DNA of 64,000 nucleotides from Dudresnaya verticillata. Lineage: Eukaryota. Of this stretch, positions 12,625-42,900 are shown in pieces; position 1 is the first letter of the stretch; every line of letters begins with the position of its first letter. The stretch is from assembly GCA_977862235.1 (NCBI GenBank), contig OZ374562.1, forward strand, positions 2,666,001 through 2,730,000, given 5' to 3'. The notes under the pieces were generated by a model that saw only the letters and a list, made by a program, of their open reading frames with translations, searched no databases and had not been told where the DNA came from. A program made the position numbers and the translations under genes.

Positions 12625-12705
12625 ATCCGGATTCCTACCCGGTTCCACGCGCCGATTTCGTCGCTCAAGACTTTGTTACGATCGTAACCCATACCGTCTG
12701 AAAAA

Positions 12706-18206: not shown

Positions 18207-18676
18207 ACAGAGACGCACATGACTGCATTATCTTTCGCGAAAAAAAGAAAGAAATTGTCGGTATCCTGTGGCATTTTCGCAAGTGTCACATTGTTTCGCA
18301 TACCCACGAACAAGAATAAGACGTTGCAAACACCCCAAGCGTCCAAGATGGTTGAAGCCCCCCAACTTGCAACTGGGACCCGGCACGAGGCCTTTAGGGC
18401 CCCGAACCAGATGACGTTTGGATGGCGTTAAGGAATTGGACCTCTCCCATTGGGATTTCCCCGCAAGGTTGAGCGCGAAGCTGCGGACCGGCACAACATA
18501 GGTGTCTTGTAGCCCGCCGCATGGGTCAATCGGCAAGAAGGAGTGGTAGCAAGCTACCATTTGAGTGAAGACGAGTCCACAAGCGATCCAGGACGCCATA
18601 GGGTGCTGCGCGGTCAGGTTGGTTCGTGAGCAGAGCAGGGGAGGGGAAGGAAGGCACACCCGGTGGCCTCTTAAAT

Positions 18677-18874
18677 CCCGCCTGATGATTATCACAGTTG
18701 GTAATTTCTACCCGACCATTTGGCGCACGATTTCCCGCCCCGGAATTGCCGCCCTGGGCCCGATTTATCTGCCCGCCTCATGATTATCATAGTGTGCAAT
18801 TTCTACCCGACGATTTAGGCGCCAGCATTTGGGCCCGGAAATTGCCGCCCTGCGCCCGACTATTCTTCCCGCCT
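18677..18874. repeat. Two diverged ~95-bp tandem units in the Copia 3' UTR
   Basis: CCCGCCT(G/C)ATGATTATCA...TTTCTACCCGAC...AATTGCCGCCCTG at 18677 and 18772. Confidence 0.75.
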
Positions 18875-18933
18875 ATGTCTAATGCAAATTAGCTATGCGC
18901 GCATCGCCGACGACCGTTCTGCGACAGGGGGAG

Positions 18934-19344
18934 TGTCGATTTGCACCCATCTGTGTCGCAGAGTCGCACTGTAAGATACCTTACAGTGCTCCCGCCGTCG
19001 GCGACCACCGCGCCGTCCGCGCGCGACGCGCGCGCCCGACTGCAACTGGCTGGGCTACTTCAAGCCCCGCTCCTCTGAGCACGATCGAAGTAGAAGAGTA
19101 AGCAACGTTGACGAGAACGTCCGTTGCGTCAGCCGCGGTGGTCTGCCGTAGCCCTCTTCCCTTGCTTCGATAAACCTCGCCCACCTCTCTGACCCGCTCG
19201 CTCCGCTCGCGCCCCGCTTCGCCCGGCTTCGCCCCGCTCGCGCCCCTTTCCCCGTGTTCCGCGACCCTGCGCGCTGTGCCCGCAGAGCGGTGATTCTACA
19301 CCACTCTCACGCCGCGCGCGCCATTCGACCTGCTACGGACGACA
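18934..19344 (+). repeat. Copia 3' LTR
   Basis: Direct repeat of 12217-12624, preceded by the PPT. Confidence 0.9.
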
Positions 19345-19799
19345 AAATCCCAGTGGGACATTGGGCCAACGTCTCACTTGTAACCGCAGCCACGGGCGGC
19401 CGTTTTGCAGCGGTTCACAATAGTGACAAATCACTTGGTTCGCTGTCCCAATCTTGTCGGCGCCAGTCTCATTATTCCGGCGAACTTCGTGCGCTTTCGC
19501 GCGGAAAGCCCCAAGCGGCTGCATACTTCAACGGCATCACAGCGGCTTCCGCTGCAGTTCCCTCTGCCCGCCCACACTTCGCTCCACCATCTCCAACCAC
19601 CTCCGCGCCCTGCGCTTTCCTTCCCTCTCAAACCTACCGCCACGCGGTGTTCAAACCGCTCATCTTAACGAGCCGCAGTGGCTGTGCGTAGGTACAAGCG
19701 CCAATCTTCGGCTGCGGTCTCCGGTGTCCTAGGCTGACAGACTGTCATCCTACGGCTGCGCCGTCGAGTTTCGTTCGGAAAGAAGAGTCATCGTGACTA

Positions 19800-20465
19800 T
19801 TGTGGTCGATTCGTTCGTCCCTTCGAAGTCGGATGAGTAACAGCCAGATGGCTTATGGGGCCGTCGGTTCAAGCGTCGGTGTGCTAGGCGTGGACTTGGA
19901 CCATTTTGGCGTCCCCTTCTCCGTTAAGGAGAGTCACGACTGGAGGGTGCGCACCGACTTGGCGCACCTGAAAGCGCATGCTGGCGCTGACCGCACGGAT
20001 ATCCGCCGGCATGGAATGCGCAAGGCGCAGCGTCGCACGTGGTATTCGCATGCCCGTTCCCGCGTGAGCCTATTAACTTGATTAACTCGTGGTCTTCCCA
20101 CCCTCACGGGGCCGTGACAGTGGGATCTAGCACACCCGCGCTTCCGTCATGAGGTGCGCTATACAGCCGCCTTATGTAATAAGCTCAATTATGCTAGAAC
20201 AAATCCAACGCGTTCATGACGTTGGGGAATTCGACCTTGTTATTGTGGTACACGAGCGCCCGCTGATCCGCAGCGGCAGGGACAACTACCCTTACACCAC
20301 AGCCCCGGTTGTCCGTTGGGATGAAACTTCAAACTTCAAGTATGCCCCGGACAGCCCCCAAACGGCAATGCCGTCCGACTTAGTACGTTTCGAACGTCGT
20401 AACCGCCACCGCACCGGCTGTTTCGTGCCGGCGCATTGCCAAGAGGTTCTCTCTATCCGACCGGA
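19800..20465 (+). pseudogene. Gypsy-B antisense ORF, N-terminal part
   Basis: SHDWRVRTD and RFERRNRHRTGCFVP match the Gypsy-A and Gypsy-D ORFs. It continues in frame at 34464 once the DNA transposon is removed. Confidence 0.7.
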
Positions 20466-21585
20466 AACACTAATTTCGCCGGCTACAGAATTTCCAAAAC
20501 GGAACAGAATTTTTTGAGGGTCCTTGAATCCCGTCGTTCGATAGCGCGTTGGAAGGGGGCGCTACCGTGAGAATAGTGGTGCAAACAGATCGGAGCAAAC
20601 GCAAATAGTTTCGGAGTTATGCGCTCCGGCATATGGGCCCCCCCGGGGTCGAAAGTTCCCGAAAGTTGTGATTTTTCCGAAAAGTTCCAATTAAAAATTC
20701 TCCAGAAATTGATTCTGCCCCGTCCCGCCGCCCGCGCCCCCGCCCCCGACCGCACACCGCATTCTGGCGACTTCCCACCGCATTCCGACGTGCTCGGACT
20801 TGTCTTCCCACCGCATTCCGACGCGCGCTCGGCCACCTCCTCACGTTCGACAGCCACTCCCACCATCACCCTTCCTGGTGCTGCTACTGGCCCACACATT
20901 CGGCATTCCGGCGCGTGCGCACGCGCTCTGCTTCTGCCTTGCGCGTAATGAGGCGTGCTTCCCCATCCCCTCCCAGACCCGTAGTGCCGCTCCCCGCCCC
21001 AGTCCGGACTGTGACCGCGCTCTGTCTCACGTTCCCTGCCGTTCACCGACACCTCGCCGTCACCCTTCCCCGCGCTCCTGCGCACCGCGCCCGGCCGCAT
21101 TCTGACACGTCCACATCAAGTTGCCGCATTCGGGCGCACGGTCAGCCCCTCCCAGCAGTCTCCTGACACGCCTCCCTCACCCTTCCCTGCGCTCCTGCGC
21201 ACCGCGCCCGGCCGCATTCTGACACGTCCACATCAAGTTGCCGCATTCGGGCGCACGGTCAGCCCCTCCCAGCAGTCTCCTGACACGCCTCCCTCACCCT
21301 TCCCTGCGCTCCTGCGCACCGCGCCCGGCCGCATTCTGACACGTCCTCATCAAGTGCCCACATTCTGACGCACGGTCAGCCCCGCCCAACAGTCCCCCGA
21401 CAAGCCTCCCTCACCCCTACCTCGCTCCCGTGCGGCACGGGCACCCGCATTCTGACCCGGCCTCACAACTGGGCCCACAACCCGCCCGACCTGGTACACT
21501 ACCAGGTAGCTAAGCCGCTTGTGCACCCGCGGTTCGGACTTAGCTTGTGGCGTAGACGGGCGCTACAGGCGTCGAATGGTCTTGC
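20466..21585 (+). repeat. Left TIR (~1.1 kb) with 3 x 117-bp tandem units
   Basis: Reverse complement of 33303-34459. Units start at 21061, 21178 and 21295, with a partial unit at 21412. Confidence 0.93.
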
Positions 21586-21693
21586 ATTTCTCGTGTGCTG
21601 CATCAACCTGAGAGTAGAATTTACTGGTTGTAGCTGTTTCTCGTATCAAGATCCGGCATCTCTAACTAACAACAGCAATTCTCTGATTCTCTT

Positions 21694-24623
21694 CTAGACG
21701 AGCTGCGGTAGACTTCTCTTCGTAAGAGCTTCGAATTCGACCATTACGGTCGCGACGCCGACAGTACCAGTCCATGGCTGCTTAGTCGCTGAGTATATGG
21801 ATGTCTTGTACTTTCCGTCCCAAACACCCTTACCGTGATACGCCTCGTACCATCTTATATACAGCTCAGTAGCCTTTCCCGCAGCGTCCTGCACAACATC
21901 TAGAATCTGTCCAACCCAAAATGGGCATCGTGCGGTGGCGTTTTCCCTCACAACGGCAACGAAGTAGTTCTTCGTGTACTGCAGGTCTGGAGAGGGGGTC
22001 ACAGTCTCCTCCTCACCTTCATCTCCTTCCGGTACGTTCTCCAGCGCCGCTCTTCCGCTGTACTTTACCCTTGTCTCAAACATGTGCCCCATATCCCAAT
22101 GAAACGTTTCCAGCCTATCTCTGCCCACGTGGTCCCGCAATTCCTGCAGCTCCCTCATCTTTCCCGTGTCATTCACACGTGTATCTTCAGAACGAAACCT
22201 GTCGTTGACTTCCTTCAAATCTTGCGGCGATTTGACCACTGTTGCTGGGTTCTTGCCAAGGTCAGGAGGAGATAGTATGAACCCCTTATGCTCTCCTCCT
22301 GTCTGCAACGGAACCCAGTCATCCGCGCATGTCATTCTCAATTGACAGCCTGTCACGAAAGCTGCAACAGATTCTGCCTCTTCCGTCGCAGCTGGACCCA
22401 CACGGTGGAATCTGAAATAGCGATAGGTCGTGAATGCCTCAACATTACCAATGCATCCTTCCTGTCGACACAGGCCTGAGAAATTCGCAATTTGAAGCAT
22501 GCGACTGACAACTGGTTCTGGACTTTACGACTGCCGAAGCTCTTCCATCAATTCAGTCATTGTGACTGCGTCCCAAACTTTAAGCCGGCGTGCCGTGCAC
22601 GAAAAGGCCTGATCTATATCTTTGTGAGTGTGCCCGACAGGCAGGAAAGACACGAAGACCTCTTGGAACACACCCCATGCAACGAGACTCTCCAGGTATG
22701 AGAACAAAAAGGTATCTTTGTTCTCTCTCGAACAGTTGTCTACTTGTAGAAATAGAGTCCCTTGCAGCTCTCCTCTGGACTTTTTGCCCGAAAGTGTTCT
22801 GTGCAACGCCTCGATAATGTGGTTCGCGCCGGTCTCGAACTCACCGGTCATTGTGTACAAGTGCAGACGCTTCTCAGCCCTGTGTTCAAGCACCCCAATA
22901 AGTTTCGCTTTCATGGCATGCCCAATGCTGGCTTTGGACGACACCACAAAATGGGGAAGTCCAAATGCAGACTGATCAGCACCATCCACTATGAGGGAGC
23001 AATACTCTTGCGGCAATAGTATCGCCTTCTCACATTTTTTCTGATATTCACGTCTCTCTGCCTGTATGAATTTCAAGTGAATGTTGCGCCGCTCATGCAG
23101 GTGTTCAGTGCCTGCTCCAGAGGTCCCTGCCTGAGCAGGTCGCTCGCGAATGAGTTCGCATTCGCTGCACTTTGCAAATCGGTGTGTCTTTCGCACCTTA
23201 ATGCGTGAGCAACTGTGTTTCCATACAAAGTAAAAGTAACTCTGACACGGAATATCCCTGTTTCTGTACAGCCTGGTGTGGTCCAATTTGAAGATGTCGT
23301 ACACAACTGATTTCTGAAAGTAGGGGAGGTGTGACTCCCCATTATCGGGCATTGGTTCAGCAGTGCTGTCTGCAAGACGTTCAAGGAAGCAAATGATAGT
23401 ATCCTGCTGATGGGATGAGGTATCACGCCTCGCATTGTTTGGGAGTTGCAGCTTCCGGCACTGCCTCGTGCCTTTTACAGAGGTCTGTAAGTCGCGGGAG
23501 AATCCAAAGGCCTGCTCCAAAAAGCTGTAACAGACAGGCAGGCGGTTGAAAAAGTATTTCATCTTGCTCGTGTCCAACAGATTGCAAAGATACGTTCGCC
23601 TTGCTTCTACGTTCATTCCGGCAATTCTGCGCGCCTCCGCCTTTAATTACACTTGCTCCACACTTTGGAAGCACTTTTCCCGATGCAGCATCTCATTGAC
23701 TGTGTTTTTGCGCGTTCCAGTTCTTGGAAGAGGTGTTTACGTCTCTTCTGAAGACTTCCTCTCTCACTGAATGTCTGCTGCTTTCTCTTCCTGTAAGTAT
23801 ACTTTCGCTTCATCCTGACCTGCACCTTCCGAAAAGGGTCATACGCATCGTCATCACTTTCCAACACGGCGTCCGCATCATCATGGCTGGCCTCCCTCAA
23901 ATGCTCTCTCGGTTCACTCAATTCCTCACTGCTCGGAGCATTGCCAGGCGGGGGTGTTGTTCGAATTGACCGCGCTGCGGCATCCGCTTGCGTCCCCGCA
24001 CTTTGTGGGAGGGGTGATGCTGGCCTGGTCGCGTCAACTGGTGTCATCTGCTGGGGTGATGCCGTAGGGGCCACCGCTGCGGCAGTGTTTTCTGCAGTTG
24101 ACGTTGGGGGGCAATTGCTCAGTATTGGGTAAATTCTGCGACGAACTATGCCCTGTCGTGGAGAGTAAAACCATCTCTGGCACAACAGCGCGATTTCTCG
24201 ATTGCCGAGCTCCTGAATGTAGTTCACATCCCATGCATGAAAACCACCACCCATCTCCCCAAGTTTGTGCGGAACTGAGTCCGTTGTCTTGTACTTGTAT
24301 TTGTACTGAAGTTTCTCATACGGTTGCATGATTTGTGCTCGGTAAACCACAACCAGCTTCTCCCCTTTTTTCTGACTGGGAGACAATTTGTGGCCATGCA
24401 GGGTGCCACAATACCTGCCAGACTGGTCTGCGTCCTCTTTTATCCCCTGTCTCTTGACAATAGCAGTACCGACCATTTCCCTGTCATACAGAAGAGCAAC
24501 ACGCCCTTCATCGCGCGCGTTGCCTCCTCCTTTCTTTGCTTCATTTTCTCGCTCAGCACAATCCGTAGTTGACGGGCTCATTTCCATGTCGTTCAAAATG
24601 TATTTCCGCGACGGCATCTGCAC
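21694..24623 (-). pseudogene. Sola-like DDD transposase (~975 aa reconstructed; 1 frameshift, 2 stops)
   Basis: RCC..KCF, FAKCSEC...H, LIVDGADQ, LQVDNCSRENK, FLPVGHTHKDIDQAFS. ORFs 22525-23616 and 21694-22500 are in frame across a TAA. Confidence 0.85.
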
Positions 24624-25559
24624 CCAGCTTGTGAGAGTGCCACTCGTTCTGTCTTCCCTTCACGCTCTAAGCAGAGCGCCCGCTTTGCAGTCTGTTAAGG
24701 CACCTGGCCGACCTGGCGGGGAGGCGCAGCCCTTCGCAGCAAAACGCTTGCGCATTAAATACCCTCTGTGATACCGCGGCGGGCCGCCTGTTGCCTGCTC
24801 TTGAGGCTTCACACCCGTGGAGCTGCATGAGTGGCTACACGGTGTGCATCTGGGTTATCTTCTGCAACCCAGATTCTGTTTGTGATCAGATTCTGGTTCT
24901 GCACTTGGCCAATTACATTTCAGGACAAGTCTCCACATGCATGCGGAGCCACACAAGCTGCAGCTTCTGGGAGGCGGACACATACAGCTGACGGTCTCCG
25001 CAGCTTCTGAGAGGCGCTCTCTCAGCTGCTTTGCGATTCGATATGCGCGGTCATATGCTTCCCTGTAGCCCTCATTGTACGCCTTTGCTGCATACGCGCC
25101 CAACCCGTTGCCTCCTTCCTTGAAATAGTCTCGCGGTCCAAGAACAGGGACGCCCCATACCCATGCACTGCAGGAATGTTCAACGATTGGAAATCAGGGA
25201 CTCACCGCTTCAGGCCCGTCTTCTGATCCGGCTGCACCAACCCCATCTACCTCAACTCTGCGTCGTTTCAACCCAGCACAACTCGAGTATTATTTTGCGT
25301 TGTCAGCCAAGGCACCGATTTCATCCGCATCTTCGCCCTGCGTTCCAGACCCATCAACAACACGCGTTGCTCCCCTTCCCTGTAACCACTTGTCAGCACC
25401 AGCCGCCCTCAGCGCTGACTCAATATGCATCTCCTTCATCCAAAAGCCGAGGACCCTATCCAACCCACCAACAATGGGCTCTTCCTCATCTCCAGAGTAC
25501 ATGAGTACAGAAAGCCCGTGCTTCCCGAATCACCCGGCTCTGCCCACTCGGTGGCGGCA

Positions 25560-25988
25560 AAGTTCAACATCTCCCCGAGCGATGCCTACGGCCGCCGATG
25601 GATGCCTCCGGTTATTCCTGGCAATGCAGCACTGACATTTGAGATTGAGTTTGCAGACTTCAAGGGCGGCGGACGCGAAGATGTCAAGAAAGTCGCAGAG
25701 TTCAATCCTGAGGTGGCCAGGACTCCCATTGAAATTGCCACAGAATATGATGCCGGACTTGAAACGCAAGAGGAGCGAAGGAAGAACATGTCCTTGCTAG
25801 AACGCTTTTACCTCATGAGCCCATTTTCCAGCCGAACGGGAGAACGCCCGCCTTGGTGGAGCAATCCGATTATTACTTTCGTTGCAATAGCGGTGTTCTG
25901 TGCACTTGACTTCTATCCCGTTGTTGTAGCAGGTGGCATTCATGTGGGCTATGTTGATCAGCCTGTGTATGTGACCATCTTTAAGTAG
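25560..25988 (+). pseudogene. Captured fragment: C-terminal half of an FKBP-type peptidyl-prolyl isomerase with a hydrophobic tail
   Basis: ISPSDAYGRRWMPPVIPGNAALTFEIE matches the FKBP C-terminal signature. The N-terminal half is absent. Confidence 0.75.
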
Positions 25989-26269
25989 CCTTGCTTTTTC
26001 ACTGCTTTACTCCATGTAAATACTGTGCTAACTTCGTGTTGACAGAGAATGAAAATGCGTTTAGGCCAGGTGATGGTAACAATCGGGTGAGAAAGAAATC
26101 ACCCGAGAAAACGCAGCGCCTAAATCACTCAGTGCGAGGTCATGGGTTGATAACTCTCGCGCGACCTCGAGAAGCATTTCGCGACCGAATGCTTGTATCA
26201 TGGGAGCATTCTAGCCTTCTACCTCCTCTGTGAATCTTTCAAATCTGAGACGCTGCCCGGTCGCACATC

Positions 26270-27720
26270 CCGTGCCACCACGTATTACTCTTTCATCGAA
26301 GTAAGCGTTTAGAATTTGTTTTCGGGACTGGGAATGTGTTCTGCAGACTGAAATATCATTCTCGAAACGTCCTGGGCGGAGACGTGCATCATCCAGAAGG
26401 TCTAGGGGTCGCGTCGTCCCCGCAAGAAAAACAGGCTCACCCGAAGAACGGTTGTTGGTGCCGTCTATTTCGGTGAGAAATGTTCCCAGAATGCTATTGA
26501 ATGCTTAAGAAGCGGATTCCTCATCAGTGCAACCTACAGATGCACGACCACGACTCGGAGCGAGAAAATCGACATTCTCAATGACGATGACTGTTTAGAG
26601 TAGGGCCCTCGCTGTAGCGAACAGTTCTGATAGCCGTCTCTCACCATCGCCGACAATGCTGCTTATAATAGATGTGCCTTCAACGCATAGATTGTTTATG
26701 CTCCCATGGGTAACTGTCTGCGACGCCAGTCGCGCGATTGCGGACTTTTCAGATCCTGTTGCACCATAAGAGATTAAACACTTCCATATCCCTAGCGTTT
26801 GCAGTGCTTCCTGGCTGCTATCAGCCGAATGAGGGCCACTCCGAGCCCGAAGCACTGTTGTCAGACATTCTTGAAATCGCTTGATTGGCGAATCCAAGCC
26901 ATGCAAGGCCTTGATAAACTCAGGATCAAAAAGCTCGTCGGCTGGGGTTTCTTTCACGACCGACAGCAAGGATGCCTTTGTCATTTTGACGGAGCCCCAA
27001 AACTACGGAGCAGAAAGAAGGTCATGCGGTTCGAGCGAGGAATTCCTCGCTTAAGAATTGATCGTTGGTCTTCACCAGGCTCGTTCCAGTGTAGAGAACA
27101 AACTTGTCATGTCGCCATGCATGAACCCAGGTCTAACGACGGCAACCCTTTCTGCCATACGTCTCAAATCAGCATGGCTCTTGTTGCTAAAGATATTCGA
27201 GATCCAGTGGAGGGACAGTTTCCTCCTCTCGATGAATGCAAGTGCATGCAAACTGATCACTTCCGATGTACGCTTGCAACCAAATAAACTCGGGCATACA
27301 TCCTGTTGATTAAGTGCAGTAGTAATAAAGACTACAGGGATATGGCTTTCGTCATGCAATGCGGAAAGCTCTTCACGGAGTGCAGCAACGAATTAGTTCG
27401 CTTAAGCGAACGTCACGGGATGACAAAAGTTTGGCTGGTGCCCATACGTCGAGCACACCAATAAGGATTGCAACTGGGACACAAGCAGTACTCAGCATAG
27501 ACTCATTACCAAATATATCGTTTTCAAGACCAACAGCTTCCGAGAAAGGTTCCGAAATAGCACCTCCTATGAACCCAGCATCATCAACTGCTATAACTCT
27601 TGGACACGAGCACACTACCCAAACGCCGGCGAAACGTGCCCCTTGTGCAGCAAGTGTAATATTCCTTGATGCGGAAGTCTTTCATGCGGCAGTCCAGAGC
27701 ACTTGAATGGCTAGAGGTGA
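26270..27720 (-). pseudogene. Captured, decayed AAA+ ATPase (CDC48-family-like)
   Basis: Degenerate Walker A YGATGSEKS, SIISSIVGDGERRLSELFATAR, VIVIENVDFL, FLTEIDG and SRH LDDARLRPGRFE (~26360-26400). Confidence 0.75.
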
Positions 27721-29064
27721 CCTGCGTACCGCTTGTAGAATGCCAATGAGTTCTGGACACGATAAGGGAATGATGAATATGAATAGCAAGCGAGGGCTAT
27801 GGGAGCATCTGAGAGACGTGCGGTTGTCCAATACGACGATCACGGCTCGCATTTAAACGTTTTTCGGTTCGGGAAGGGGTTGGGAGCAATAATACCATGA
27901 TGACCATGATGACAGGCTGAATGATGGCAGGCTGAATTATGGTTTTCAAGGCAAGCGAGAATTTGCGTGTCAGAAGCGAACGTAGGACGGTAAGCAGGCA
28001 GGGAAGCACAACGGCGGTATTACGCAGCGGAGAGGAAGGGGAGTGGAGGAAGATACCGTGAGTGATGGATTCGCGGGGCGGGAGTCGTCGTGGAGAGGGT
28101 AACGGCGTTTGTGAGGCAGTGTGTTTTGGCAGTCATTCTTGTGTCCGCATTCTGGGAATTCATCTCGTGAGCTCGCAGCGCCGAGGCCAGATAGATTGTG
28201 GAGTTTGCGGGCTCTCAGGACCTGTTCCCCGATACTGATATTGCACTTTGGGCTCCTGCGTTCCCGTGAAGCGCAATATCTGTTCTCATAGCAATGTGAC
28301 TTGGCCGCATTCAGAAGCTGTAAAGGTGTTGACGGCGGCCCCATGGAAAGACCCTTTTACAAGCTTACTCAATATCATTGGACAGAAAATCTATACAGGT
28401 AGCGCGCAATTTGCCACATCAAATGAACAGCTATTTGGCCCGGCGCTCTCGCCCTACCTGTTCCCTGATACTGATATTGCACCCACAGGTGTTGACACCT
28501 CCCACCCCCGAGAACCTATTCCTCGTAAATTGACCGCGGCTCCCCCGCTGGCACGGCGCTGGAAACGGTGTGCCAGTACTCACCGAAACCGTGTGTGGCA
28601 TGCTAGTTTACTCGCAGTATCAGCACCTGGCCAGGCCGGCCTCAACTTCAAAGCCCAGCCAAGTCGGCTGGGACAGCAAGCAGCATGCCCTAATTGACTT
28701 TGTTACATCTCGCCCTGCAGGTCCGGTGAAACCTGCATTCTGCCAATTCCAACTGTACGGCCTGTGCTAAGAATAGTTCTGATGGAGACTGCCCACACCC
28801 GGTGAACAATCCACGTGACCTCCCGTGCCATCTCAGAATTTGCGGCACATCCATGTCGTACTCCCGCCGTCCAGTTTGTCGAAAGCCCGTATGGTGTCAG
28901 TCGAAAACGGCACCCGGCAAACATGAGCTGGGGACGTAAAGAACTTCTTGCGGAAGGTTTTCTGAACAGAATCTGGACAACTCGTCGGACATGCAGTACC
29001 CCTTTCCGTACTCTTTCAAGGAGAGCGGTTTTCACGTGCACAGTGAATCTTTCTCTCGCACACC

Positions 29065-32000
29065 ATGTCGAAGCGCAAGAAGCGGAGCAGGGGCTCAAGT
29101 GAGCCCTTGAGGAAGGAGGAGATGGCACAGGCACTGTTTGGAGATGTCATGGAGGGGTCTACCAACATTCGAATAGACCCCAGGTCCTGTGTTCCGATGA
29201 CTGATATAAGGGAATCTCGAGATCCGGTGTTTAGAGGCTCAAGAAGATTTTCAGGGGTGGTGGGACGAGGAGTGGTAACTACAACAACGGGTACATTGCA
29301 GGTTCTGATGCGCCCATACTGGCTCGCCTAACGGGTCCCTTCAGGAGTTTAATTTTTGAGTTTCTACGAGCTAAATGGAATGCGGATGGGACAGAGTACA
29401 CAGAGAAACAGGTGAAAGAAGAGGCCTCCAGTCGGTCGGAGTGGTTCGGAGTTGTTGATGGCATGCATAGACTTATCAACATTATGGAGCTAATCGATGA
29501 AGACCGGGAGACATGGAAGGGGTTTGCTTTGACTGCCACTGTGCTTAAGGGGGGCACAACATCCAGATTCTGAAGCAACTGGCTCGTCATCAGAACAGAA
29601 AGCACGACTCCAGCTTTTTGTAGAGATCACGTTTTACGATCAGATATGCGGTCTGAGGAAAGAGGCAGACCGTCTCGAAGCCAGTAATGGGAAGACTCCG
29701 ACTGCGACGGCAGTTGCCGAAGCATGTGATGGATGCAGTCACCTATCGTAAAACACTATCAAACAGACAGCGGCAACCGTTCTTCGTCTTGACCGTCGCG
29801 TTATCGATGTAATTGGGAAGATAATGAAGGAGGAGGTCCCTGAACTAACAACTATACAACTGTTGACTGCTTCCGGAAAGGCCATAGACTCAAATGTTGC
29901 GATGCAGAATCTGGATTGCAGAGTATACAGACGCTTCATTCACGTCAGTTCCATCAAGTCTTCCAAGGCCTTTATGAATGCAGGCAGCTCTGATAACGGC
30001 ATTACTGTTCAAATAGCTACCCTGTACAGGCTTCGAGAGGTGTCAAGGACACACAATTTCAAACCTATTTCGGCCAAACACACGCAAGAGCAATTCGTGA
30101 AAGCTTCAGCCGCCCTTTCCGAGACTCGGAAGTTTGAAGCGATGAGGGAGAGGACAGAATGGCCGTCAGGCATGAGTACATTAAGAGAAAACCTGTTACA
30201 GACTACAAAGCTGGACGTCGAGGTCATCATGAATCGAGGTAATGACCGTACACTGTTGAAAACAATAGTTGAAATGTACAGAGAGTGTTGTCCGGAAGAG
30301 GCCCCAGTGAAGTTGCAGAAGTACAAAGATCTGCAAACTGTGATGGATTCGACAGAAGGCAGACGTGATGACGCTGTCATGACCCGCCCGGGTTCCAATG
30401 AATGTGGAGCAAAAGATTCTGACGGTCAACAGAATTTGGACTGCACGTTGTCACCGCAGGTGGACGCTACCGGAATCTGTAACGACGACGAGGTTTTAGC
30501 CTTAGTAACATCAACCAATTCGAAAAGGGCAGAAGGTCGCTAACCAGCAGAATCTGTACAGGCACCCGTCCAGAACGCATACCCTAAAGCTGCATGTGCA
30601 GCCAAATACCTTTCTGTACCGGAAAAGAGTCCCACAGACCCCATTGTATCAACTGTGTCATCAAAGCAGTCTGTTCGCCTCAACATGGGTACTAAGCCTG
30701 TGCCGGTGGAGGACGGATCGCTTTCTGTTCCAATAGATTATCTTGCGGAAATGAAACTGACATGCTTTCAGATGATATGGCAGAGCTACGACAGTACCGT
30801 AAGGAAGGAAGGTGACAAACGATTCGATTTCATCCTCACTGATCCACCATACGGTACACCGAAATCGCAGTCTAAGTCGGGGAGGTCATTCGATAATTAC
30901 CTCAGCGAGGAAGACATTAAGAATATAGTTGAGTTCTCGAGGCGCGTACTTGTAGCAGGGGGTGGTTGTTTGTTTTCACGTCATTCCTGAACGCCAGTGT
31001 ATTCCACGATGCTATGAAGAAGGCACAATTCATGTGCCCAGCATACCCATTCGTATTCTCCAAAAACCCCAAGACCATGCAGGAACATCGGGGGAGCGAT
31101 ATGCCCCAGAACTGCGTGGAAATAGCTGTCATGGCGCGTGCCCCAGGTCAGCATGGCAGAGGGTTCTCGCTCGACCTTAGGAGCGAGTATCACTGCATCC
31201 CCTCCCCAGAAAAGCGGAAATTCGCGTGCATGTCCTCTCTACCAACACCAAAACACAAGTTGCTACGCCCAGGCATCAAGTCCCCAGTTCTGGTCGAAGA
31301 GAAGTCTCCCAAAGTACTTGTGGAGATAATGACAACATTCTGTCCGGAGGGCGGGTCAGTTCTGGATATGAACAGCGGAACCATGACGACTGGGATTGCA
31401 GCTCTCAGAACAGATCGTCGGTGTACACTAATCGAATCACAGGTCGAAACATTCAAGCTGGGGGCTGAACGTTTGCGTAGGCTTGCCACGGAAGCATATG
31501 AAATGAAGACAGATCGTAAACGTTTGGAATCAAGTGCTCATGACGAAATGAATGGTATCGGTGAGGCAGCAAGAGGTAGTGTTGTCAAAACAGATTCTGG
31601 TCAACCAACAAACCATTCCGTAACAAGGAAGGGACCTGAAATGTCCCATCTGACGACACCGTCCGAGCACGTATTGGATGACCCCGAAGAGAGTATCGAG
31701 AAGCACGGCAGGAGTGAAGACACAGTTGTAGGAAGTGTGGAGCTGAATGAAAAGTGCAGGAGAAGGAAAAAACCTGAACCTTGTGCAATGCCCAAGGCCG
31801 GAGACAGAATCACGCTTCTTGCAGATGATAAGGAAGTGGAGGAGGCCGTGTTGCATCCTGAAAAGACTCCAGGAGGGAATTGGAATGAACGCTTGCACGG
31901 CCACGATCTGTCAGAATCTGCCAAACCAGGGGAGCATCTTGTGGTCGTGTACAGTTTGAAGGTCATGGCGGAGTATGAGCTAAGTTCGTATCCGTATATA

Positions 32001-32093
32001 TTCAAGGGAGTAGAGGACCCTCCTGCCAATCTCAAGGGCCTAAACGGCTTGTTGTTCTCGTGGGACTTGCACAACATGAAGAAGATTGGGTAG
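29065..32093 (+). pseudogene. ParB/Srx domain + HTH + beta-class DNA amino-methyltransferase (DPPY) + C-terminal domain shared with the transposase; ~1000 aa, several frameshifts and stops
   Basis: VVDGMHRL at 29451-29474. HTH-like KTPTATAVAEA..G.S near 29690-29790. FDFILTDPPY (DPPY at 30841-30852) precedes EKSPKVLVEIMTTFCPEGGSVLDMNSGTMTTGIAA...IE. Confidence 0.85.
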
Positions 32094-32601
32094 GAATTAT
32101 AGTCAGTACAGTACTATTGCCATAGGCCGAATTGAACATTTCTCGAGCATCCCTATTCTGAACATGTCTTTGCGTCTTGCTTCCGCCATGGTCCATGAAT
32201 TCGACGTCATTCAGGCACCATTTACTCGAATAACGCCAGTGCTTCCACGTGCCGTACTATGAACGCGGGGGTTATATTTGGTCCACCAAACAGAATCTGT
32301 CACGGAAGGCTGTCGCGAGTGTGGCACATGTACCGTACTGCTGCAGCTGTTGGCAACGTTGCGGCATATTGGCAGTAAGTGATTGATCGACTACGTACCG
32401 GAGTGCGCCCAGGGCTGTCTCCAACGCATATGAAATGGACACCCGTGAGCTCGTGGAAAGATGGACCATGTATTGTCCAGGCACGCAGTGATCCTGTCGC
32501 AGTTAAAGGCCTCGGCCATTTCGGAAAGAGAGCTGAGATGAAACGAAGTTTTCGTTCACCACCATAATCTGCTGTGACCAGAATACCGCTGTATTGAGAC
32601 C

Positions 32602-33123
32602 TTGGATGACTTGATTCTGGATGTGGAAAAGCTGTACAACGCCGTTAAACGTCGGATGGAGGAAGATCTTAATCGTGAGGCACGAAATTGGACGCACCAA
32701 AGCCCTAGCAGTGACGACGACATTCTAGACAACCACAATGACGTGGATCGTGCCCAAATGGCTTGGGAATCATCACAGCAATTTTACGCAGGTAAGACGA
32801 TGATGGAGCATTCCCACCATCAGAAAGCTTTGGAAAAATTGTACAGGTTGTTGCTGAAGAAAATCTTTCTCGTGGGAAGGGTCAAGTACGTACACGGTGC
32901 AGCCCATGCTATAGACTTCGCGATTGTCGAAACGCTGCACAGGGGCGGAGAGAACTCGTATCAACTGGACCGCTACACACGTCTGCTTTGCACCAAATTC
33001 TACATGTCCAACAGCCGCGCAATGAAACCGGAGGTGAGGATGTGCATCATGAGGAGCCTGAGCAATGAACTGTCTAGTTGTGAAGGGCTGTATATGCGGA
33101 AGCATGATAGCAGCGATTGCTAA
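32602..33123 (+). CDS. Hypothetical protein inside the DNA transposon
   Basis: 173-aa open frame with protein-like composition. No motif recognised. Confidence 0.35.
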   Translation: MDDLILDVEKLYNAVKRRMEEDLNREARNWTHQSPSSDDDILDNHNDVDRAQMAWESSQQFYAGKTMMEHSHHQKALEKLYRLLLKKIFLVGRVKYVHGAAHAIDFAIVETLHRGGENSYQLDRYTRLLCTKFYMSNSRAMKPEVRMCIMRSLSNELSSCEGLYMRKHDSSDC

Positions 33124-33302
33124 CTTTAGAGATAGTAAATTGGTGGCCTTCTCCCACGAGCACAGCAATGCGCTTCATTCCATTTGGCGGCCTACAATCG
33201 GGGATGTGCCCCATTGAAGTATGGCATGGTCCTCAGCTGCGGCGCAATAAACGCGGCGCAGACAACAGAATGCAATGGGGTCAGGCTGGCATTGTGCAGA
33301 AC

Positions 33303-34459
33303 CGCAAGGGAAATCGACGCCGGTAGTGTCAGTCTACGTCACAAGTTAAGTCCGAACCGCGGGTGCGCAAGTGGCTTAGCTACCTGGTAGTGTACCAGGT
33401 CGGACGGGTAGTGGGCCCAGTTGTGAGAACGGGTCAGAATGCGGGTGGCCGTGCCGCACGGGAGCGGGGTAGGGGTGAGGGAGGCGTATCGGGGGACTGC
33501 TGGGTGGGGCTGAACATGCGTCAGAATGCGGGCACTTGATGAGGACGTGTCAGAATGCGGCCGGGCGCGGTGCGCAGGAGCGCGGGGAAGGATGAGGGAG
33601 GCGTGTCGGGGGACTGCTGGGAGGGGCTGACCATGCGCGCGAATGCGGCAACTTGATGTGGACGTGTCAGAATGCGGCCGGGCGCGGTGCGCAGGAGCGC
33701 GGGGAAGGGTGAGGGAGGCGTGTCGGGGGACTGCTGAGAGGGGCTGACCGTGCGCCCGAATGCGGCAACTTGATGTGGACGTGTCAGAATGCGGCCGGGC
33801 ACGGTGCGCAGGAGCGCGGGGAAGGGTGACGGCGAGGTGTCGGTGAACGACAGGGAGCGTGAGACAGAGTGCGGTCACAGGCCGGACTGGGGCGGGGAGC
33901 GGCACTACGGGTCTGGGAGGGGGTGGGGAAGCGCACCTCATTACGCGCAAGACAGAAGCAGAGCGCGTGCGCACGTGCCGGAATGCGGAATGTGTGGGCC
34001 AGTAGCAGCACCAGGAAGGGTGATGGCGGGAGTTGCTGTCGGACGTGAGGAGGTGGCCGAGCGCGCGTCGGAATGCGGTGGGAAGCCAAGTCCGAGCGCG
34101 TCGGAATGCGGTGGGAAGACAAGTCCGAGCGCGTCGGAATGCGGCGGGAAGTCGCCAGAATGCGGTGTGCGGTCGGGGGGCGGGGGCGCGGGCGGCGGGA
34201 CGGGTCAGAATCAATTTCTGGAGAATTTTTAATTGGAACTTTTCGGAAAAATCACAACTTTCGGGAACTTTCGACCCCCGGGGGGGTCCATATGCCGGAG
34301 CGCATAACTCCGAAACCATTTGCGTTTGCTCCGATCTGTTTGCACCACTATTCTCAGGGTAGCGCCCCCTTTCCAACGCGCTATCGAACGCCGAGATTCA
34401 AGGACCCTCAAAAAGTTCTGTTCTGTTTTGGAAATTCTGTAGCCGGCGAAATTAGTGTT
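33303..34459 (-). repeat. Right TIR (~1.15 kb)
   Basis: Inverted copy of the left TIR, with one extra ~31-bp unit near 34060-34140. Confidence 0.93.
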
Positions 34460-34463
34460 CGGA

Positions 34464-36114
34464 GTTTTATAGGGTCAAGTACCCTCAAATCGCCGGGGAC
34501 CACACGGACCTTGAAGTGTCCTACTCCATGCCAGTGGGGACGCCCACCATCGTAGCCTACCTTGGCTTGGAGATGATGGACGGTCACGCAGACGAGAGTT
34601 TCTTGTGGTCGATATGCCGCGACGAATGGATCGTCCTGGTGACGCAGGTGTTGGTGTACGAAGCCCGTCGGGGGCTGCTGTATTTCATCAATTCCCGACT
34701 TCGAGGGGCCATCCGCACTATAGGCGCATCTGCCTTTTGCGCCACCGCGGAGGATGCTCAGGACCTGGACCAACTCTTGCTATATGTAGAGCGCATTCGC
34801 TGGAGCGGCATTTCAAAGCGCAATAGGCACTTGCCTGAGAATACCGGCCACGTGACGCCTGTATACGACCGCGGCGACTGGGTAGACTTCGACGCCGCCA
34901 AGTGGCACTCAGTCCTTCCGGACTACCTAATGGCCCCTATACCCGAAGAGAGTGAGTCCATCTTATTGGATGAGTGCGAGCGTCGGTCTGGTTATACCAG
35001 GGGGTGTGTCAGCGTCCCCTGCCGGGATGAAGGGCCTAAACACCCTGATGCCGTGCCTCCCTTCGACGACTCTGTGGACGGGGACCCTCAGGGGCCGTAC
35101 GTCCCAGTATTGACTCACCACCATCGAGCCGACAGTGAGATCCGAGATCTATTTGGACGTCGTGGCTTAGCCATCCGGCTCGCTGCCCATTGGGGTATCT
35201 ACTCCGTCAACCTTCACAGTCTCGCTGACTGGGTTGAGGAGGTCCTAGCCGAGTATGAGGCTCACTGGGTTGGGACACCGGGTCCCATTGACCGCCTTTT
35301 GACTCACCTGAATAAGTTGCCCCCGCTGGGCGGGGTCAAGGTTAAAGTTGAGCCTGGAGTGAAGATCAAGAAAGAGGCGGACTCTAAGGTCCGCCGCGGC
35401 ATCGGCTACGGTAAGCCGGGTACTTCTGCCCAGGGCTCTTCTGGTGCCATTCTAGCGCCAGGTGCTCGTGAAGCTATTGAGGATAACGAGTCTAAGATTC
35501 CGAGCGAAAAGCCTTTGGCTGGGGCTTCCAGCGAGGGTGGAACTGCCGGGCCGCCGGCTGCGGCAAATATATCATCCATGGCTCAGCCATCGGCTTCTCG
35601 AGTTGGCGTCCCTCTGCGCTCCGTGCTTCCAGGCACCGTGCCTACTTCCACCGTGGCGCCATCCGGGCCGTTGCAGCCGAATCCGCCTGCTACCAGCGAG
35701 GTATTGAAGGCTTCGTCAGGGCTAGGCCCTACAGTAGCGCCGCCGCCTATGCCGGGTCAGGCTGAGCTGCCTTTAGGTGCAGCCGAGGAGGTTTCCTCGG
35801 CGCCGACGAGCGATGAGCCGAAGGCTAATGACGACTTGATCGTCAAAACGGAAGTGGTCCTCAAGGAGGAGGAGGAGTTGGAGCCTAATGAGGGCGGAGG
35901 TGTTGCACCTATAGCCGCGCCTATGGACGTTGAACTTCCAGCCAGTGAGGCTCGTGGTGCCACAATGGAGGGTATGCGCCGAGGCCGCGGTCCGCGTCGT
36001 GGTCAAGGTCGGCTAATTGTTCGCGGAGTTCGTCGCATCGTGTCGGCACAAGCTCCCGCGGCTCCGAACCCGCCTCTTGACGGAGATGAAGTCATTGACC
36101 TTCTCTCAGATTAG
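34464..36114 (+). pseudogene. Gypsy-B antisense ORF, C-terminal part
   Basis: TPTIVAYLGLEM...LWSICRDEWI...GDWVDFD followed by an Ala/Pro/Glu-rich tail. Confidence 0.75.
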
Positions 36115-38959: not shown

Positions 38960-39831
38960 ACTACTTCGCAACTCCGGGGTTTCGCTCAAAATCAAGAAGT
39001 GCTTCCTTTTCCGCAAACGAGTCGACTATCTTGGACACGTAATTTACCCGGGGAAGCGGAGTATGGCCAAGATGAGCTCCGAGGCATCCCGATACGCGAA
39101 GTTCCCGAAGACAGTCACGCAAGTCCGTTCGTTCCTCGGCGCGTGTAACGTATACCGAAGATTCGGGAAAGACTTCGCGAAAATTGCGCGACCGTTGACG
39201 AACATGACACGAAATGACGCGAATCCAGACTACGAGAATCCCACGGAGGACCAGGTTACCGCATTCGAAACGCTCAAACGGAAGCTCGTGTCACCGCCGA
39301 TACTCTGGCTACCGCAACTCGGGAAACGCTACATCATCGATACGGAAGCGTCTGCGTATCAACTCGGGTGCGCGTTGCTACATGAGCAAGATAACGAAGA
39401 GTTCCAACCGGCGGGATACTGGTCTTATTCGTTAAACGATGCCGAGAAGAACTACTCCGCGACCGAGCGCCTATGCTACGCAGTCGTATGGGCGGTTACT
39501 TCGTCACCTCCGTATATCGAAGGGACCCGGTTCACCGTGCGTACGGACCACGACGCTCCGCTGGCTTCTTTCTCTCACCGATTCGTCCGGGCGACTCACG
39601 CGATGGAGGCTGCGGTTAGCTGAATTCGACTTCGAAATCATGTATCGCCCCGGTCGCGTCCACCATATTCCCGATGCCCTTTCGCGGTTGCTACTTCCAC
39701 ATCGCGAACAACCCGCAGTCGACGACGAAGTGCCTACGTTGGATTCGGATCAAAACTCCAAAGAACGAAGCACGCTTCAGAAACGACGTCGCAAAAGCTA
39801 TCGAAAACGCAAGCGAACCGGTTCTCATCAC
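38960..39831 (+). pseudogene. RT/RNase H segment of the Gypsy-C family, inverted near-identical copy of ~42615-43513
   Basis: Translations match those of the minus-strand ORFs at 42532-43309, including the same frameshift after TDHDA. Confidence 0.9.
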
Positions 39832-39947
39832 CGCAGCAATCGAAATGAGCACTTCGTAGTCGGCACGTGATGCAAAAACGTAGTGGGGCGCCGGGGCCAT
39901 TCGGGTAATGAGCTTCGGGTGCCGCACAGCTCGAGTGGGCGTAGGTG

Positions 39948-42900
39948 TTATTCGGGCTGCGGATTGCGGATCACGAAGTCGGGGCAACGGATCCACACGG
40001 GCTCCCAGTCGGAGAGCCATTCGTGGGCGATTAGCACGGGATCAAGCGGGTCTGCTTGGCTTCGAAGCCTTGCGAAGTAGCGCGAAACGAGTTCTTCGGG
40101 CACGTGCGTACGGGGTTCCCACGTAGGCGTCGCGTAGCCGTCCCACTTGATACGAAACACGAATTTCCCGTCTTTGTCTGTCGAGTGATCGACGATATGA
40201 TCGACAACGTACTCGGGGCCTTCGTTGACCTTTTCCGCAATGTCTTCGGGTCGCGTAATCGACGGCCGCGAATTCGTAGGTGGTGGCGCGTAGATACAGC
40301 GGTCCGCGGAGACGCGTTCAACGAGGCCCTTGCGATCGATCACGAGTGTACGCGTATAGTTGAAGACCACTTTGTACGGCCCCTCCTCGGGGGATTTCAA
40401 CTTCGGAAGTTCCTTTTTGCCATCGTGGGTATCGAGCAACACGTAATCTACGGGTTTGACGCAGCTCTTCGTGCGTCGGATGCGTTTGTCGAAGTCGCGC
40501 TTGTATCGGTTTTGCACGCGTTGTAACGAAGTTCTTGCGGAGGTGATTGCGACATCGAGTCACCTAACGAAATCATTTCGAATGTCCTCCGTGGGTTTCG
40601 GTCGGTGCTTACGGGAGCGATGCTTGACGATGAATTCGGGCGGCGGTCGCGATAAAACGAGGTTGAACGGATTTGTCTTCGTAGACCGATGAACGTGGCA
40701 ATTGTACGAATACGTTAACGCGGAGATATAGCGGTCCGAATCGTTTTGGTGGTCGTTCACGTAGTTACGAAGCATGGCGAGGATAGTCCGGTTTTATCGT
40801 TCGGTTTGTCCTGTAGTATAGACGTCGGGTCGATCCGACGTCTAATACTTGCTGATCCGGAGCCGCCACACAGACCCCTCGATGGGTAGCTGTTGGGGTT
40901 GGTAGAGCGGTATCGGCCGCGTGCGCCCCGCAGGTGTGGATCGACGGAGTCGATGCCGGAGTGCGCACGGGGCGTATCGTACGCAGGTAGGCAGGGGCCG
41001 GATCCCAGCGTCCCTGTCGAAGGGCGGCACGAAGCCGACGGAAAGGAAAAGGAAAGGGGAAAAGCCTAGCGAGGCAAGGGGAAAAAGGGAAACCGCCCGC
41101 TGGCGAAAGGCAAAGGGATCGAACCCGAAAAGGCTGGGGGCAAGCTTCAGCGCGAGTTGTTGCTTGCCTGGTTTACTGAGCCGTCAATGGCCGACGGTCT
41201 TAAATACCCTACACTATGTGCACTACGACTACTTCTACAGTAGGTGCGCCCCACAACACCAACGCGGGAGGTGTGCGAGCGCGCGCCCATACACGTGTAG
41301 ACACGTCCGGGTAACGGCTACGCGTGGGCGCGCGAAGGGCGTAACGGGCAGCGGCCGTCTCAAAGGCTCGATGCCGGAGAGCGTCACAGGGGCGCGCCGT
41401 GTGCGGCACGGCGCGCGGCAGCTGCCGGCAGAAATGTGGTCGACCGCTACTAAATCAACGAAAAAACTAAGGGCACGCTGCCCAACCACGACTCGCCAGC
41501 GGGCGTCGTCGTGTGCACCATTACAGTGCGGGGCTGCCAGCATGCCTTACAGCCGCTGCTGATAGTGTGCTGACAGCTGTACTACATGTCCATTCGTTTG
41601 CGGATGATATGCGGAGGTGAACACGTTGATAACCCGAGTAGGCGGCAGACGCCATGAAAGAACTTCGAAGTAAATTGTTTTACGTTATCCGAGAGCACCG
41701 AGGCTGGCGGTCCGTATTTGAAGATCCAAACTTCGCAAAACGCGACTGCGACGTGATACGCGGTTATGACTCGTAGTGCAGCCACCTGGACCAACTTCGT
41801 AAATCGATCCGTAATCACGAGGATGAACTTGCGTCCGGATTTCGTTCATTGCAACGGGCCTAAGATGGCAATCGCAACCGATTCAAGTGGGCGCGTAGCG
41901 GGGAAGGGATTCAAGCGATGAAGGTTCCTTCGTAAGCGAATCCGATTTCTCGCGCAGTGCTTGCAACTTCGAACCGTAGATGCGATATTAGCAGCCATGT
42001 AAGGCCAGTAATACGTTTCAAGAAGTGAGCAGAACATGCGATTCTGCCCCGGGTGGCCAGCGAGTAACGAATGATGCGCTAGCGTAAGTTACCGGGGTCG
42101 GAACGTTTCGGGCAATACGATTTGCGTTAACTTCGGAATTGTCGGATGCGTTCGTCGCAGGAGACCGTCTCCATCTTCGTGAAAGAGACAATCCTTCGTT
42201 TTCGATTGTCTTGCTTGCAACGTTTGGGAGAACGAATCAATACGCTGTCCCTAGAGGATCGCGGATACGGTAATCGGCGCGGATAGGTCTGCGGGTTTGA
42301 CATCGGTTAGGTCACGCGGTTCTTCGTTAGGATCGATTCGATAAAGGTCAAACGGATCATCGTCATGGATATCGTCCCATAAATCGCAGTCATCGTAGAC
42401 ATCGTTTTGTCCTGCGTATTCATCACGTAGTGCTTCGTCGTGTACGCGGGCGCAACCTTTGTGGCGGTGAGGATGGTGAGCTCCGTAATCTTTCGGGACC
42501 TCCGTGGGTCTTTGCGTAGTACCTGCTCGAATTACCCCTTTTGCGGGCGTAGTCGTCCGCGTGGAGTCGTGGCGAATCGCGGTAACTTTCGATTGACGTT
42601 TGCGAGATTGCGTAGTGATGAGAACCGCTTCGCTTGCGTTTTCGATAGCTTTTGCGACGTCGTTTCTGAAGCGTGCTTCGTTCTTTGGAGTTTTGATCCG
42701 AATCCAACGTAGGCACTTCGTCGTCGACTGCGGGTTGTTCGCGATGTGGAAGTAGCAACCGCGAAAGGGCATCGGGAATATGGTGGACGCGACAGGGCAT
42801 CGGGAATATGGTGGACGCGACCGGGGCGATACATGATTTCGAAGTCGAATTCAGCTAACCGCAGCCTCCATCGCGTGAGTCGCCCGGACGAATCGGTGAG

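What the first reader, a model, noticed from the sequence alone, without database searches (positions are those of the whole stretch)
29065..32093. Eukaryotic TIR transposon carrying a ParB-fused DPPY DNA amino-methyltransferase
Seen: inside the TSD-bounded 14-kb element, divergent from the transposase, a broken ~1000-aa frame reads VVDGMHRL (ParB/Srx core), an HTH-like segment, FDFILTDPPY, then EK...VLDMNSGTMTT. Known: catalytic motif before SAM motif is the beta class (N6_N4_Mtase family), DPPY usually indicates N6-adenine activity, and ParB-MTase fusions are typical of phages and prokaryotic mobile elements. Inference: this is an element-encoded epigenetic system that marks its own DNA or targets, perhaps to regulate transposition or evade host silencing, and is of prokaryotic origin. 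TE-borne adenine MTases are reported in other eukaryotic TE classes, so novelty rests on the ParB fusion in a Sola-like element. This copy is decayed.
Basis: partly seen in the sequence, partly recalled or inferred. Interest (0 to 1): 0.9.

Follow-up and report, generated by a model that had tools for sequence, protein, structure and literature searches.

The report
Transposon carrying its own DNA methylase
A 14-kb jumping gene, probably from a seaweed, carries a broken copy of a bacterial-style DNA-methylase gene whose intact relatives appear to travel with the same kind of transposase, and the element alone is studded with one 9-letter palindrome that the protein likely binds and marks; this gene design was already reported in a brown alga, and I found no report of a test.

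Summary
Window 20466-34459 is a cut-and-paste element with ~1.1-kb inverted ends and a real 4-bp target duplication (CGGA). It carries a decayed ~1000-aa gene (4 frameshifts, 3 stops) opposite a DUF7869/Sola1-like transposase.

Intact relatives have a beta-class amino-methyltransferase domain (Pfam E 2e-15; fold Z 19.9) behind a ParB/Srx-fold domain. The ParB call rests on fold only (Z 9.4).

It is not a one-off capture. 67 of 157 examined relatives have both domains. 11 of 14 homolog contig lengths of 7 kb or more equal those of close transposase relatives. The two genes co-diverge (r 0.93, p 0.0012).

Added here:
- A palindrome, CAGAWTCTG, occurs 10 times, all inside the element (chance 0.46). 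It is a candidate binding and methylation site.
- An SH3-like barrel is shared by the methylase C-terminus and the transposase N-terminus.
- The catalytic motif is lost in whole subclades (canonical in 24 of 67).

Activity, target base and purpose are untested.

The parts
20466..34459 (.). TIR DNA transposon, 13,994 bp, AACAC...GTGTT ends, 4-bp TSD CGGA at 20462-20465 and 34460-34463
   Evidence: empty-site frame of 661 aa
20466..21575 (+). left inverted end with 33- and 117-bp subrepeats and 9 CCGCATTC motifs (likely transposase sites, inferred)
33314..34459 (-). right inverted end, 91.8% identical to the left, 12 CCGCATTC motifs
21646..24614 (-). decayed DUF7869 (Sola1-like) DDE/D transposase; frameshift near 23676, stops at 22525 and 21694; ends approximate
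24207..24578 (-). N-terminal barrel of the transposase, homologous to the methylase C-terminal domain
   Evidence: blastp E 8e-16, 34% over 100 aa
29065..32093 (+). decayed ParB-like + helical + beta-class amino-MTase + SH3-like barrel gene, about 1000 codons
29119..29614 (+). ParB/Srx-fold domain with VVDGMHRL (fold-level assignment)
   Evidence: weak DndB and GmrSD_N hits
30742..31500 (+). beta-class MTase domain: DPPY at 30841, motif I DMNSGT at 31365 (the family has Y/F where this copy has N)
31791..32090 (+). C-terminal SH3-like beta barrel, no family assigned
22368..32299 (.). ten exact CAGAWTCTG palindromes at 22368, 24870, 24887, 28967, 29564, 29905, 30548, 31591, 31912, 32291; candidate binding and methylation sites
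25200..25988 (+). captured, decayed FKBP-type peptidyl-prolyl isomerase-like host gene (bounds approximate)
   Evidence: Pfam FKBP_C E 0.00098, below the curated cut-off; frames
26100..27800 (-). captured, decayed AAA+ ATPase-like host gene (bounds approximate)
   Evidence: Pfam AAA E 0.0096, below the curated cut-off; frames
20131..36114 (+). 661-aa ORF of unknown family interrupted by the element (pieces 20131-20465 and 34464-36114)

Best explanation
This is a dead copy of a likely regular accessory gene of a Sola1-like transposon clade, whose intact product is predicted to recognise the element's own DNA through a ParB-like domain, likely at the CAGAWTCTG palindromes, and would then methylate adenine in or near them. 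Shown: the element, its TSD, the broken gene, the beta-class MTase domain of intact relatives, and the restriction of the palindrome to the element within this window. Shown indirectly: long association with the transposase (about 0.9). Predicted: the ParB/Srx fold (about 0.9). Inferred: the DPPY clade, to which this copy belongs, is an active enzyme (about 0.7); it works as a dimer like other beta-class enzymes; it binds the palindrome (about 0.5); it writes 6mA rather than 4mC (about 0.65). The palindrome's core GAWTC is a GANTC-type site like that of the beta-class enzyme CcrM. The most likely purpose (about 0.35) is to keep the element's divergent genes expressible against host silencing, as VANDAL accessory proteins do by another chemistry.
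For: Intact 887-1015-aa relatives carry N6_N4_Mtase at E 2e-15. The model matches M1.HpyAVI at Z 19.9 (rmsd 3.5, 190 aligned) and CcrM at Z 17.1; CcrM is the top Foldseek row (E 8e-11). Residues 11-345 match seven ParB/Srx-type chains: PadC Z 9.4 (rmsd 3.0, 97 aligned), Pnob8 ParB 8.0, plant Srx 7.4, KorB 6.7, SerK 6.3, Atu1540 6.2, human Srx 5.8. Atlas structure neighbours are ParB_N, DndB and RepB clusters. Cluster members add six more, giving 11 of 14 lengths of 7 kb or more. Seven MTase/transposase pairs co-diverge, r 0.93, Mantel 6 of 5040. CAGAWTCTG: 10 of 10 window copies lie in the element, chance mean 0.46, largest 3 in 100 shuffles. With up to one mismatch there are 22 in 11,671 bp of interior against 6 in 50,006 bp outside, p 1.4e-11. 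Five exact sites lie in the MTase coding sequence in two frame offsets; at four of them relatives do not keep the same residues.
Against: No activity, binding or methylome data. Only one copy of the element was seen, and no DNA of any relative, so the palindrome could not be checked in related elements. Shared contigs are inferred from equal lengths, not seen, and they collapse to six independent pairs. The canonical (D/N/S)PP(Y/F/W) motif is present in only 24 of 67 two-domain relatives; 14 have EPPx and 29 other variants. The ParB DGxHR motif is kept in 25 of 65. No sequence profile links the N-terminus to canonical ParB (hhalign 0.4% against one ParB; no ParB among the 8 weak rows). GAWTC by itself is not enriched in the element (32 vs 26.8 expected). 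The TIR motif CCGCATTCTG shares the half-site ATTCTG with the palindrome, so the transposase could be the binder.
Confidence: 0.5

Rival explanations
1. The protein is mainly a DNA-binding or clamp-like accessory factor. The ParB-like half does the work and the MTase domain is a SAM-binding scaffold or pseudo-enzyme in much of the family.
For: Whole clades carry EPPx or fully eroded motif IV while keeping motif I (D 55 of 56, G 50 of 56). METTL14 has an eroded EPPL (PMC7544214 passage). The N-terminal half has many near-invariant residues. Red algal PAG3 joins a ParB-like domain to a different enzyme.
Against: This copy and the nine closest full-length relatives form an all-DPPY clade at about 40-67% identity among the paired members, which points to selection on catalysis in this lineage.
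Confidence: 0.22
2. The enzyme is active but the palindromes are transposase or host-factor sites. The methylase acts on other sequences or on transposition intermediates, for example timing transposition as Dam does for IS10.
For: The palindrome shares ATTCTG with the subterminal motif. GAWTC alone is not enriched. The barrel shared with the transposase could bring the two proteins together.
Against: Exact sites are absent from the inverted ends and cluster around the methylase gene (7 of 10 in 28967-32299). The barrel was found in only 10 of 120 transposases and in 1 of the 6 partner transposases.
Confidence: 0.2
3. A host gene captured once by this element, like the FKBP and AAA+ fragments beside it.
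For: The element does capture host genes. No second copy of the element was seen (no genome held).
Against: Contig-length matches and co-divergence with the transposase. A domain shared with the transposase. Exact palindromes lie in the methylase gene but not in the cargo genes (5 vs 0). 262 clusters at 50% identity score E <= 1e-30.
Confidence: 0.04
4. A bacterial or phage ParB-methylase contaminant or very recent transfer.
For: Phage ParB_N + N6_N4_Mtase fusion clusters are among the structural neighbours.
Against: The gene sits inside a TSD-bounded element in a nest of Copia- and Gypsy-like DNA (names recalled from motifs). Best phage matches are 24-27% over the MTase only. No close relative in viral contigs or prokaryote genomes.
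Confidence: 0.02

Closest known systems
Sola1-1_Ec32 accessory gene of Ectocarpus (PMC12477816; passages and supplement rows read, FASTA supplements unreadable)
   Same: Giant Sola1-type element, 4-bp TSD biased to end in A, AAC- termini, opposite-strand gene of about 1100 aa with ParB-like and N4/N6 MTase domains, same self-modification hypothesis
   Different: 14 kb against 21.5 kb; 1.1-kb against 282-bp TIR; apparently intronless and decayed here. The palindrome and the shared barrel are not mentioned in the passages read. Sequence homology to the Ectocarpus protein could not be tested.
PAG2 and PAG3 of red algal Plavaka elements (10.1101/2025.02.11.637652; passages and section 8 read)
   Same: Transposon accessory genes with an N6_N4_Mtase (PAG2) and a ParB-like domain next to inverted-repeat arrays (PAG3)
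   Different: There the MTase is fused to SET and the ParB-like domain to a 2OG oxygenase, in separate genes of a CACTA-type element. Here ParB-like and MTase are one protein and the palindromes are dispersed, also inside coding sequence.
Phage ParB_N + N6_N4_Mtase fusions (ParB-terminase loci)
   Same: Same domain order; among the Atlas structural neighbours (536-member cluster, 98% viral)
   Different: About 440 aa, no long helical region or barrel; no detectable sequence link outside the MTase domain
Beta-class MTases CcrM, M1.HpyAVI, M.BceJIV and bdelloid N4CMT
   Same: Motif IV before motif I, same fold; CcrM methylates GANTC
   Different: Not fused to ParB. N4CMT has SPPY, writes 4mC and is a host silencing gene (PMC8885841 passages).
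Other TE-borne DNA methylases: DIRS Dam-like, DNMT retrotransposons, viral Mariner MTases
   Same: Methylase carried by a eukaryotic mobile element
   Different: Other MTase classes and other element classes; no ParB/Srx domain described in the passages read

Membership tests
beta-class amino-MTase (PF01555) | motif IV before motif I, N6_N4_Mtase profile over cut-off | tested here: met
   intact relatives 57.8 bits vs cut-off 26.7; window pieces alone below cut-off
beta-class amino-MTase (PF01555) | catalytic (D/N/S)PP(Y/F/W) | tested here: met
   DPPY in this copy and its clade; 24 of 67 family-wide; consensus from PMC7544214
beta-class amino-MTase (PF01555) | methyl transfer to N6-adenine or N4-cytosine | not testable with these tools
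   no assay or methylome; domain structure does not fix the base (PMC8885841 passage)
ParB/Srx superfamily | ParB/Srx core fold | tested here: met
   predicted model matches PadC at Z 9.4 (rmsd 3.0, 97 aligned) and six more ParB/Srx-type chains at Z 5.8-8.0; Atlas TM 0.51 to a ParB_N cluster. Z is moderate.
canonical ParB CTPase (PF02195) | sequence profile match and GxRR-type nucleotide motif (motif recalled) | tested here: not met
   no PF02195 hit; hhalign 0.4%; DGxHR in 25 of 65, DG nearly fixed. Weak DndB (best E 5e-4) and GmrSD_N hits.
ParB/parS-like system | repeated palindromic site confined to the replicon or element | tested here: met
   CAGAWTCTG 10 of 10 in the element; 9 bp, shorter than a typical parS (recalled)
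ParB/parS-like system | the protein binds that site | not testable with these tools
   inferred only
Sola transposons | 4-bp TSD and TIRs | tested here: met
   4-bp TSD as a Sola feature
Sola2 | DF(A/S)EN, SDG...YKN, HGK..CD transposase motifs | tested here: not met
   0 of 120 relatives carry them (against the alignment, part 1 of 2 read)
Sola1 | transposase homology to Repbase Sola1 | tested here: inconclusive
   no reference sequence available. DG.D(Q/K) 106, DNC..EN(K/R) 116, GHTH.DID 118 of 120; likeness to Sola1 motifs is recalled. AAC ends as in Sola1-1_Ec32.
algal ParB-like + N4/N6 MTase transposon accessory proteins (Sola1-1_Ec32 type) | two domains in one gene of about 1000-1100 aa opposite the transposase | tested here: met
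algal ParB-like + N4/N6 MTase transposon accessory proteins (Sola1-1_Ec32 type) | sequence homology to the Ectocarpus protein | not testable with these tools
   FASTA supplements could not be read

The most novel reading that the evidence does not exclude
A eukaryotic transposon clade runs a bacterial-type self-recognition system. A ParB-like dimer loads on element-specific palindromes (here CAGAWTCTG), the fused beta-class enzyme writes 6mA at their GAWTC core to keep the element active, a barrel shared with the transposase couples marking to transposition, and EPPx paralogs act as METTL14-like inactive partners.
Probability: 0.25. Interest if true: 0.85.

Novelty: new member of a known kind. 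Interest (0 to 1): 0.52.

Why it matters
Self-marking by transposon accessory proteins has been proposed for brown and red algal elements in a few sentences of two 2025 papers. In the passages I read it is untested, and VANDAL is named as the only proven case. This element offers what a test needs: a candidate site, intact DPPY-bearing relatives, and evidence that methylase and transposase have stayed together down to about 40-45% identity. If confirmed, it would be a source of 6mA or 4mC in seaweed genomes that is written by transposons. It could also explain the unexplained 66 N6_N4_Mtase genes of Asparagopsis (PMC12115072; link untested). The window copy itself is dead.

Tried and rejected
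- No whole genome is held. No sequencing run was listed, which is no evidence either way.
- No locus of the methylase family was found in metagenome or viral contigs. The single prokaryote hit is an ordinary solitary methylase at 22%.
- Eleven distant transposase loci held no methylase match and no palindrome; most are short. There was no transposase relative and no match to the element end in viral contigs.
- GATC depletion as a methylation footprint was rejected: z -2.5 inside and -2.7 outside under a maximal-order Markov model.
- A CACTA reading of the ends was rejected: no 3-bp TSD, and the 4-bp TSD restores the frame.
- Sequence searches for ParB homology failed.
- The barrel has no clear fold match (best Z 4.7 among KOW, Tudor and BAH barrels; no Foldseek hit at E <= 0.001) and no Pfam hit. 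A recalled likeness to plant TNP1/EnSpm accessory domains was not confirmed.
- Complex prediction for the two barrels was not available, so binding is untested.
- The host taxon could not be determined with a tool.
- The original Sola paper and the Yuan and Wessler paper were not held. Iyer 2011, cited by the Ectocarpus paper for similar proteins, was not seen.
- None was aimed at the palindrome or the barrel, so their absence from print is not established.

Full report
1. The element. The window holds one pair of long inverted repeats at 20466-21575 and 33314-34459. The outer 25 nt are identical and flanked by CGGA on both sides. Removing the element and one CGGA leaves a 661-aa open frame, 111 aa left and 550 aa right of the junction, while the other two frames close within 57 and 23 aa. 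The insertion and its 4-bp duplication are therefore real. No other copy lies in the window and no genome is held. The ends differ at 55 of 1108 aligned columns.

2. The transposase. It lies on the minus strand at about 21646-24614, with one frameshift and two stops, and hits DUF7869 at 2e-39. 240 relatives were found and 120 listed. They keep DG.D(Q/K), DNC..EN(K/R) and GHTH.DID in 106, 116 and 118 of 120, and none of three Sola2 motifs. With AAC ends and a 4-bp TSD ending in A it resembles Sola1-1_Ec32. Direct homology to Sola1 references was not testable.

3. The gene. ATG 29065 to TAG 32093, broken by four frameshifts and three stops. Intact relatives of 887-1015 aa cover its whole length. 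A profile of 11 of them finds 262 clusters at E <= 1e-30 among 1.84 billion representatives, of which 150 were listed. Of 157 proteins examined (146 new ones plus the 11), 67 have both the N-terminal and the MTase domain, and 22 of these also have the C-terminal domain. The MTase is beta-class by profile, by PDB sequence and by fold. The N-terminal domain matches ParB/Srx chains only by predicted fold: PadC Z 9.4, and six more at 5.8-8.0, with ParB_N, DndB and RepB clusters as Atlas neighbours. Sequence profiles give only weak DndB or GmrSD_N hits and nothing against a canonical ParB. The full model has mean pLDDT 60, higher in the domain cores.

4. Element gene or captured gene? The element does carry decayed host cargo, FKBP-like and AAA+-like, so this mattered. 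I could not see the relatives' DNA, but the tools give contig lengths. Six of 39 distinct lengths of methylase contigs equal the length of a transposase contig from the same source, all among the 16 closest transposases. Jittered lengths never gave six in 100,000 trials. Members of ten transposase clusters add six more, read by eye, so 11 of 14 lengths of 7 kb or more match. These collapse to six cluster pairs. With the window pair, methylase and transposase distances correlate at r 0.93 (Mantel 6 of 5040), and both trees share the groups (c,d) and (b,e,f), differing only at weak nodes. Shared host ancestry could also give such a correlation, so the same-contig inference carries the weight. 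In addition, the last 100 aa of the methylase are homologous to the first domain of the window's transposase (E 8e-16). This domain is found at the N-terminus of 10 of 120 transposases, but of only one of the six partners. It folds as an SH3-like barrel (pLDDT 77.5) with no specific match. One-off capture is unlikely.

5. A candidate site. After earlier findings of this scan mentioned palindromes in similar elements, I counted words. CAGAWTCTG occurs 10 times in 64 kb, all inside the element (chance mean 0.46, largest 3). It is the top palindrome class tested; the next has 5 inside and 7 outside; in 200 Markov simulations no such class exceeded 3. Near-matches are enriched too (p 1.4e-11), and exact sites are absent from the inverted ends and the cargo genes. 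Five lie in the methylase coding sequence in two frame offsets, four of them at residues that relatives do not keep, so the signal is at DNA level. The core GAWTC is of the GANTC type that CcrM methylates, but GAWTC alone is not enriched. The ends carry a different motif, CCGCATTC, 9 and 12 times, which shares ATTCTG with the palindrome.

6. Catalytic state. This copy and its nine closest full-length relatives keep DPPY. Family-wide, 24 of 67 are canonical, 14 have EPPx and 29 other forms, and the losses fall in whole clades while motif I stays. So the family mixes likely enzymes and likely pseudo-enzymes. The window copy has N where the family has Y/F in motif I and is dead in any case.

7. 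Mechanism. Most likely the intact protein dimerises, as beta-class enzymes are argued to need (PMC7544214 passages), finds its element through the ParB-like and helical half at the palindromes, and methylates adenine there, helping the element stay expressed. Binding, activity, base and purpose are all inferred. I put the whole at 0.5, a non-catalytic role at 0.22, and an active enzyme with other targets at 0.2.

8. What is known. The Ectocarpus TE paper describes a 1104-aa ParB-like plus N4/N6 MTase gene opposite the transposase of the 21.5-kb Sola1-1_Ec32 and proposes self-binding and self-modification (PMC12477816, passages and supplement rows). The Bostrychia paper describes PAG2 (N6_N4_Mtase + SET) and PAG3 (ParB-like + 2OG oxygenase) with inverted-repeat arrays (section 8 read). 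A search with five terms from 2024 on returned only these two. Iyer 2016 does not list this family in the passages and section 8 that I read. Asparagopsis has 66 N6_N4_Mtase genes against 4-6 in other red algae (section 7 read); whether they belong to this family is untested. Other papers were seen as passages only. Supplements that I could not see (Ectocarpus FASTA files, Bostrychia supplements) may already hold this family or the palindromes.

9. Origin and host. The 25 listed best phage matches are 24-27% identical over the MTase only, and phage ParB-MTase fusions are structural neighbours. A prokaryotic or phage origin is plausible but old, and the donor is not identified. The host is probably a red seaweed, inferred from intronless TE genes in a retroelement nest and from the literature above; no tool confirmed it.

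10. Verdict. A real and well-supported feature, a new member of a recently described and untested kind. The palindrome, the co-divergence and the shared barrel make the published hypothesis directly testable. Interest 0.52.

Noticed in passing
window 25200-25988 (+) and 26100-27800 (-): Decayed FKBP-like and AAA+-like host genes carried inside the element, Pack-MULE style.
   Followed up: partly
window 32578-33123 (+) and 24855-25193 (-): Two further open frames inside the element (181 and 112 aa); the first has no Pfam hit, the second was not scanned.
   Followed up: partly
window 20131-36114 (+): The interrupted 661-aa ORF has no Pfam hit and no tblastn relative in the window. Similar-looking low-complexity ORFs lie at 3406-4416 and 49778-50971 within LTR-like elements.
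   Followed up: partly
window 21697-22100 (-): The transposase C-terminus looks like a BAH or chromo-type barrel; one relative hits Pfam BAH at E 0.043.
   Followed up: partly
window 20466-21575 vs 33314-34459: Of 55 substitutions between the inverted ends, 40 are transitions, and 34 of these are at C followed by G or C. This could reflect host cytosine methylation; no background test was made.
   Followed up: no
window 1874-11015, 12217-19345, 48303-60736: Three LTR retrotransposons with paired direct repeats of 89-99% identity; two Gypsy-like and one Copia-like by recalled motifs.
   Followed up: no
window 38961-43513: A 98-99% identical inverted duplication of about 900 bp inside a Gypsy-like pol region.
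   Followed up: no
proteins P0259, P0262, P0266, P0268: A divergent clade with DPFQ in motif IV, NGG(Y/F)EH in the ParB motif of three, and N-terminal extensions of 100-160 aa in three.
   Followed up: no
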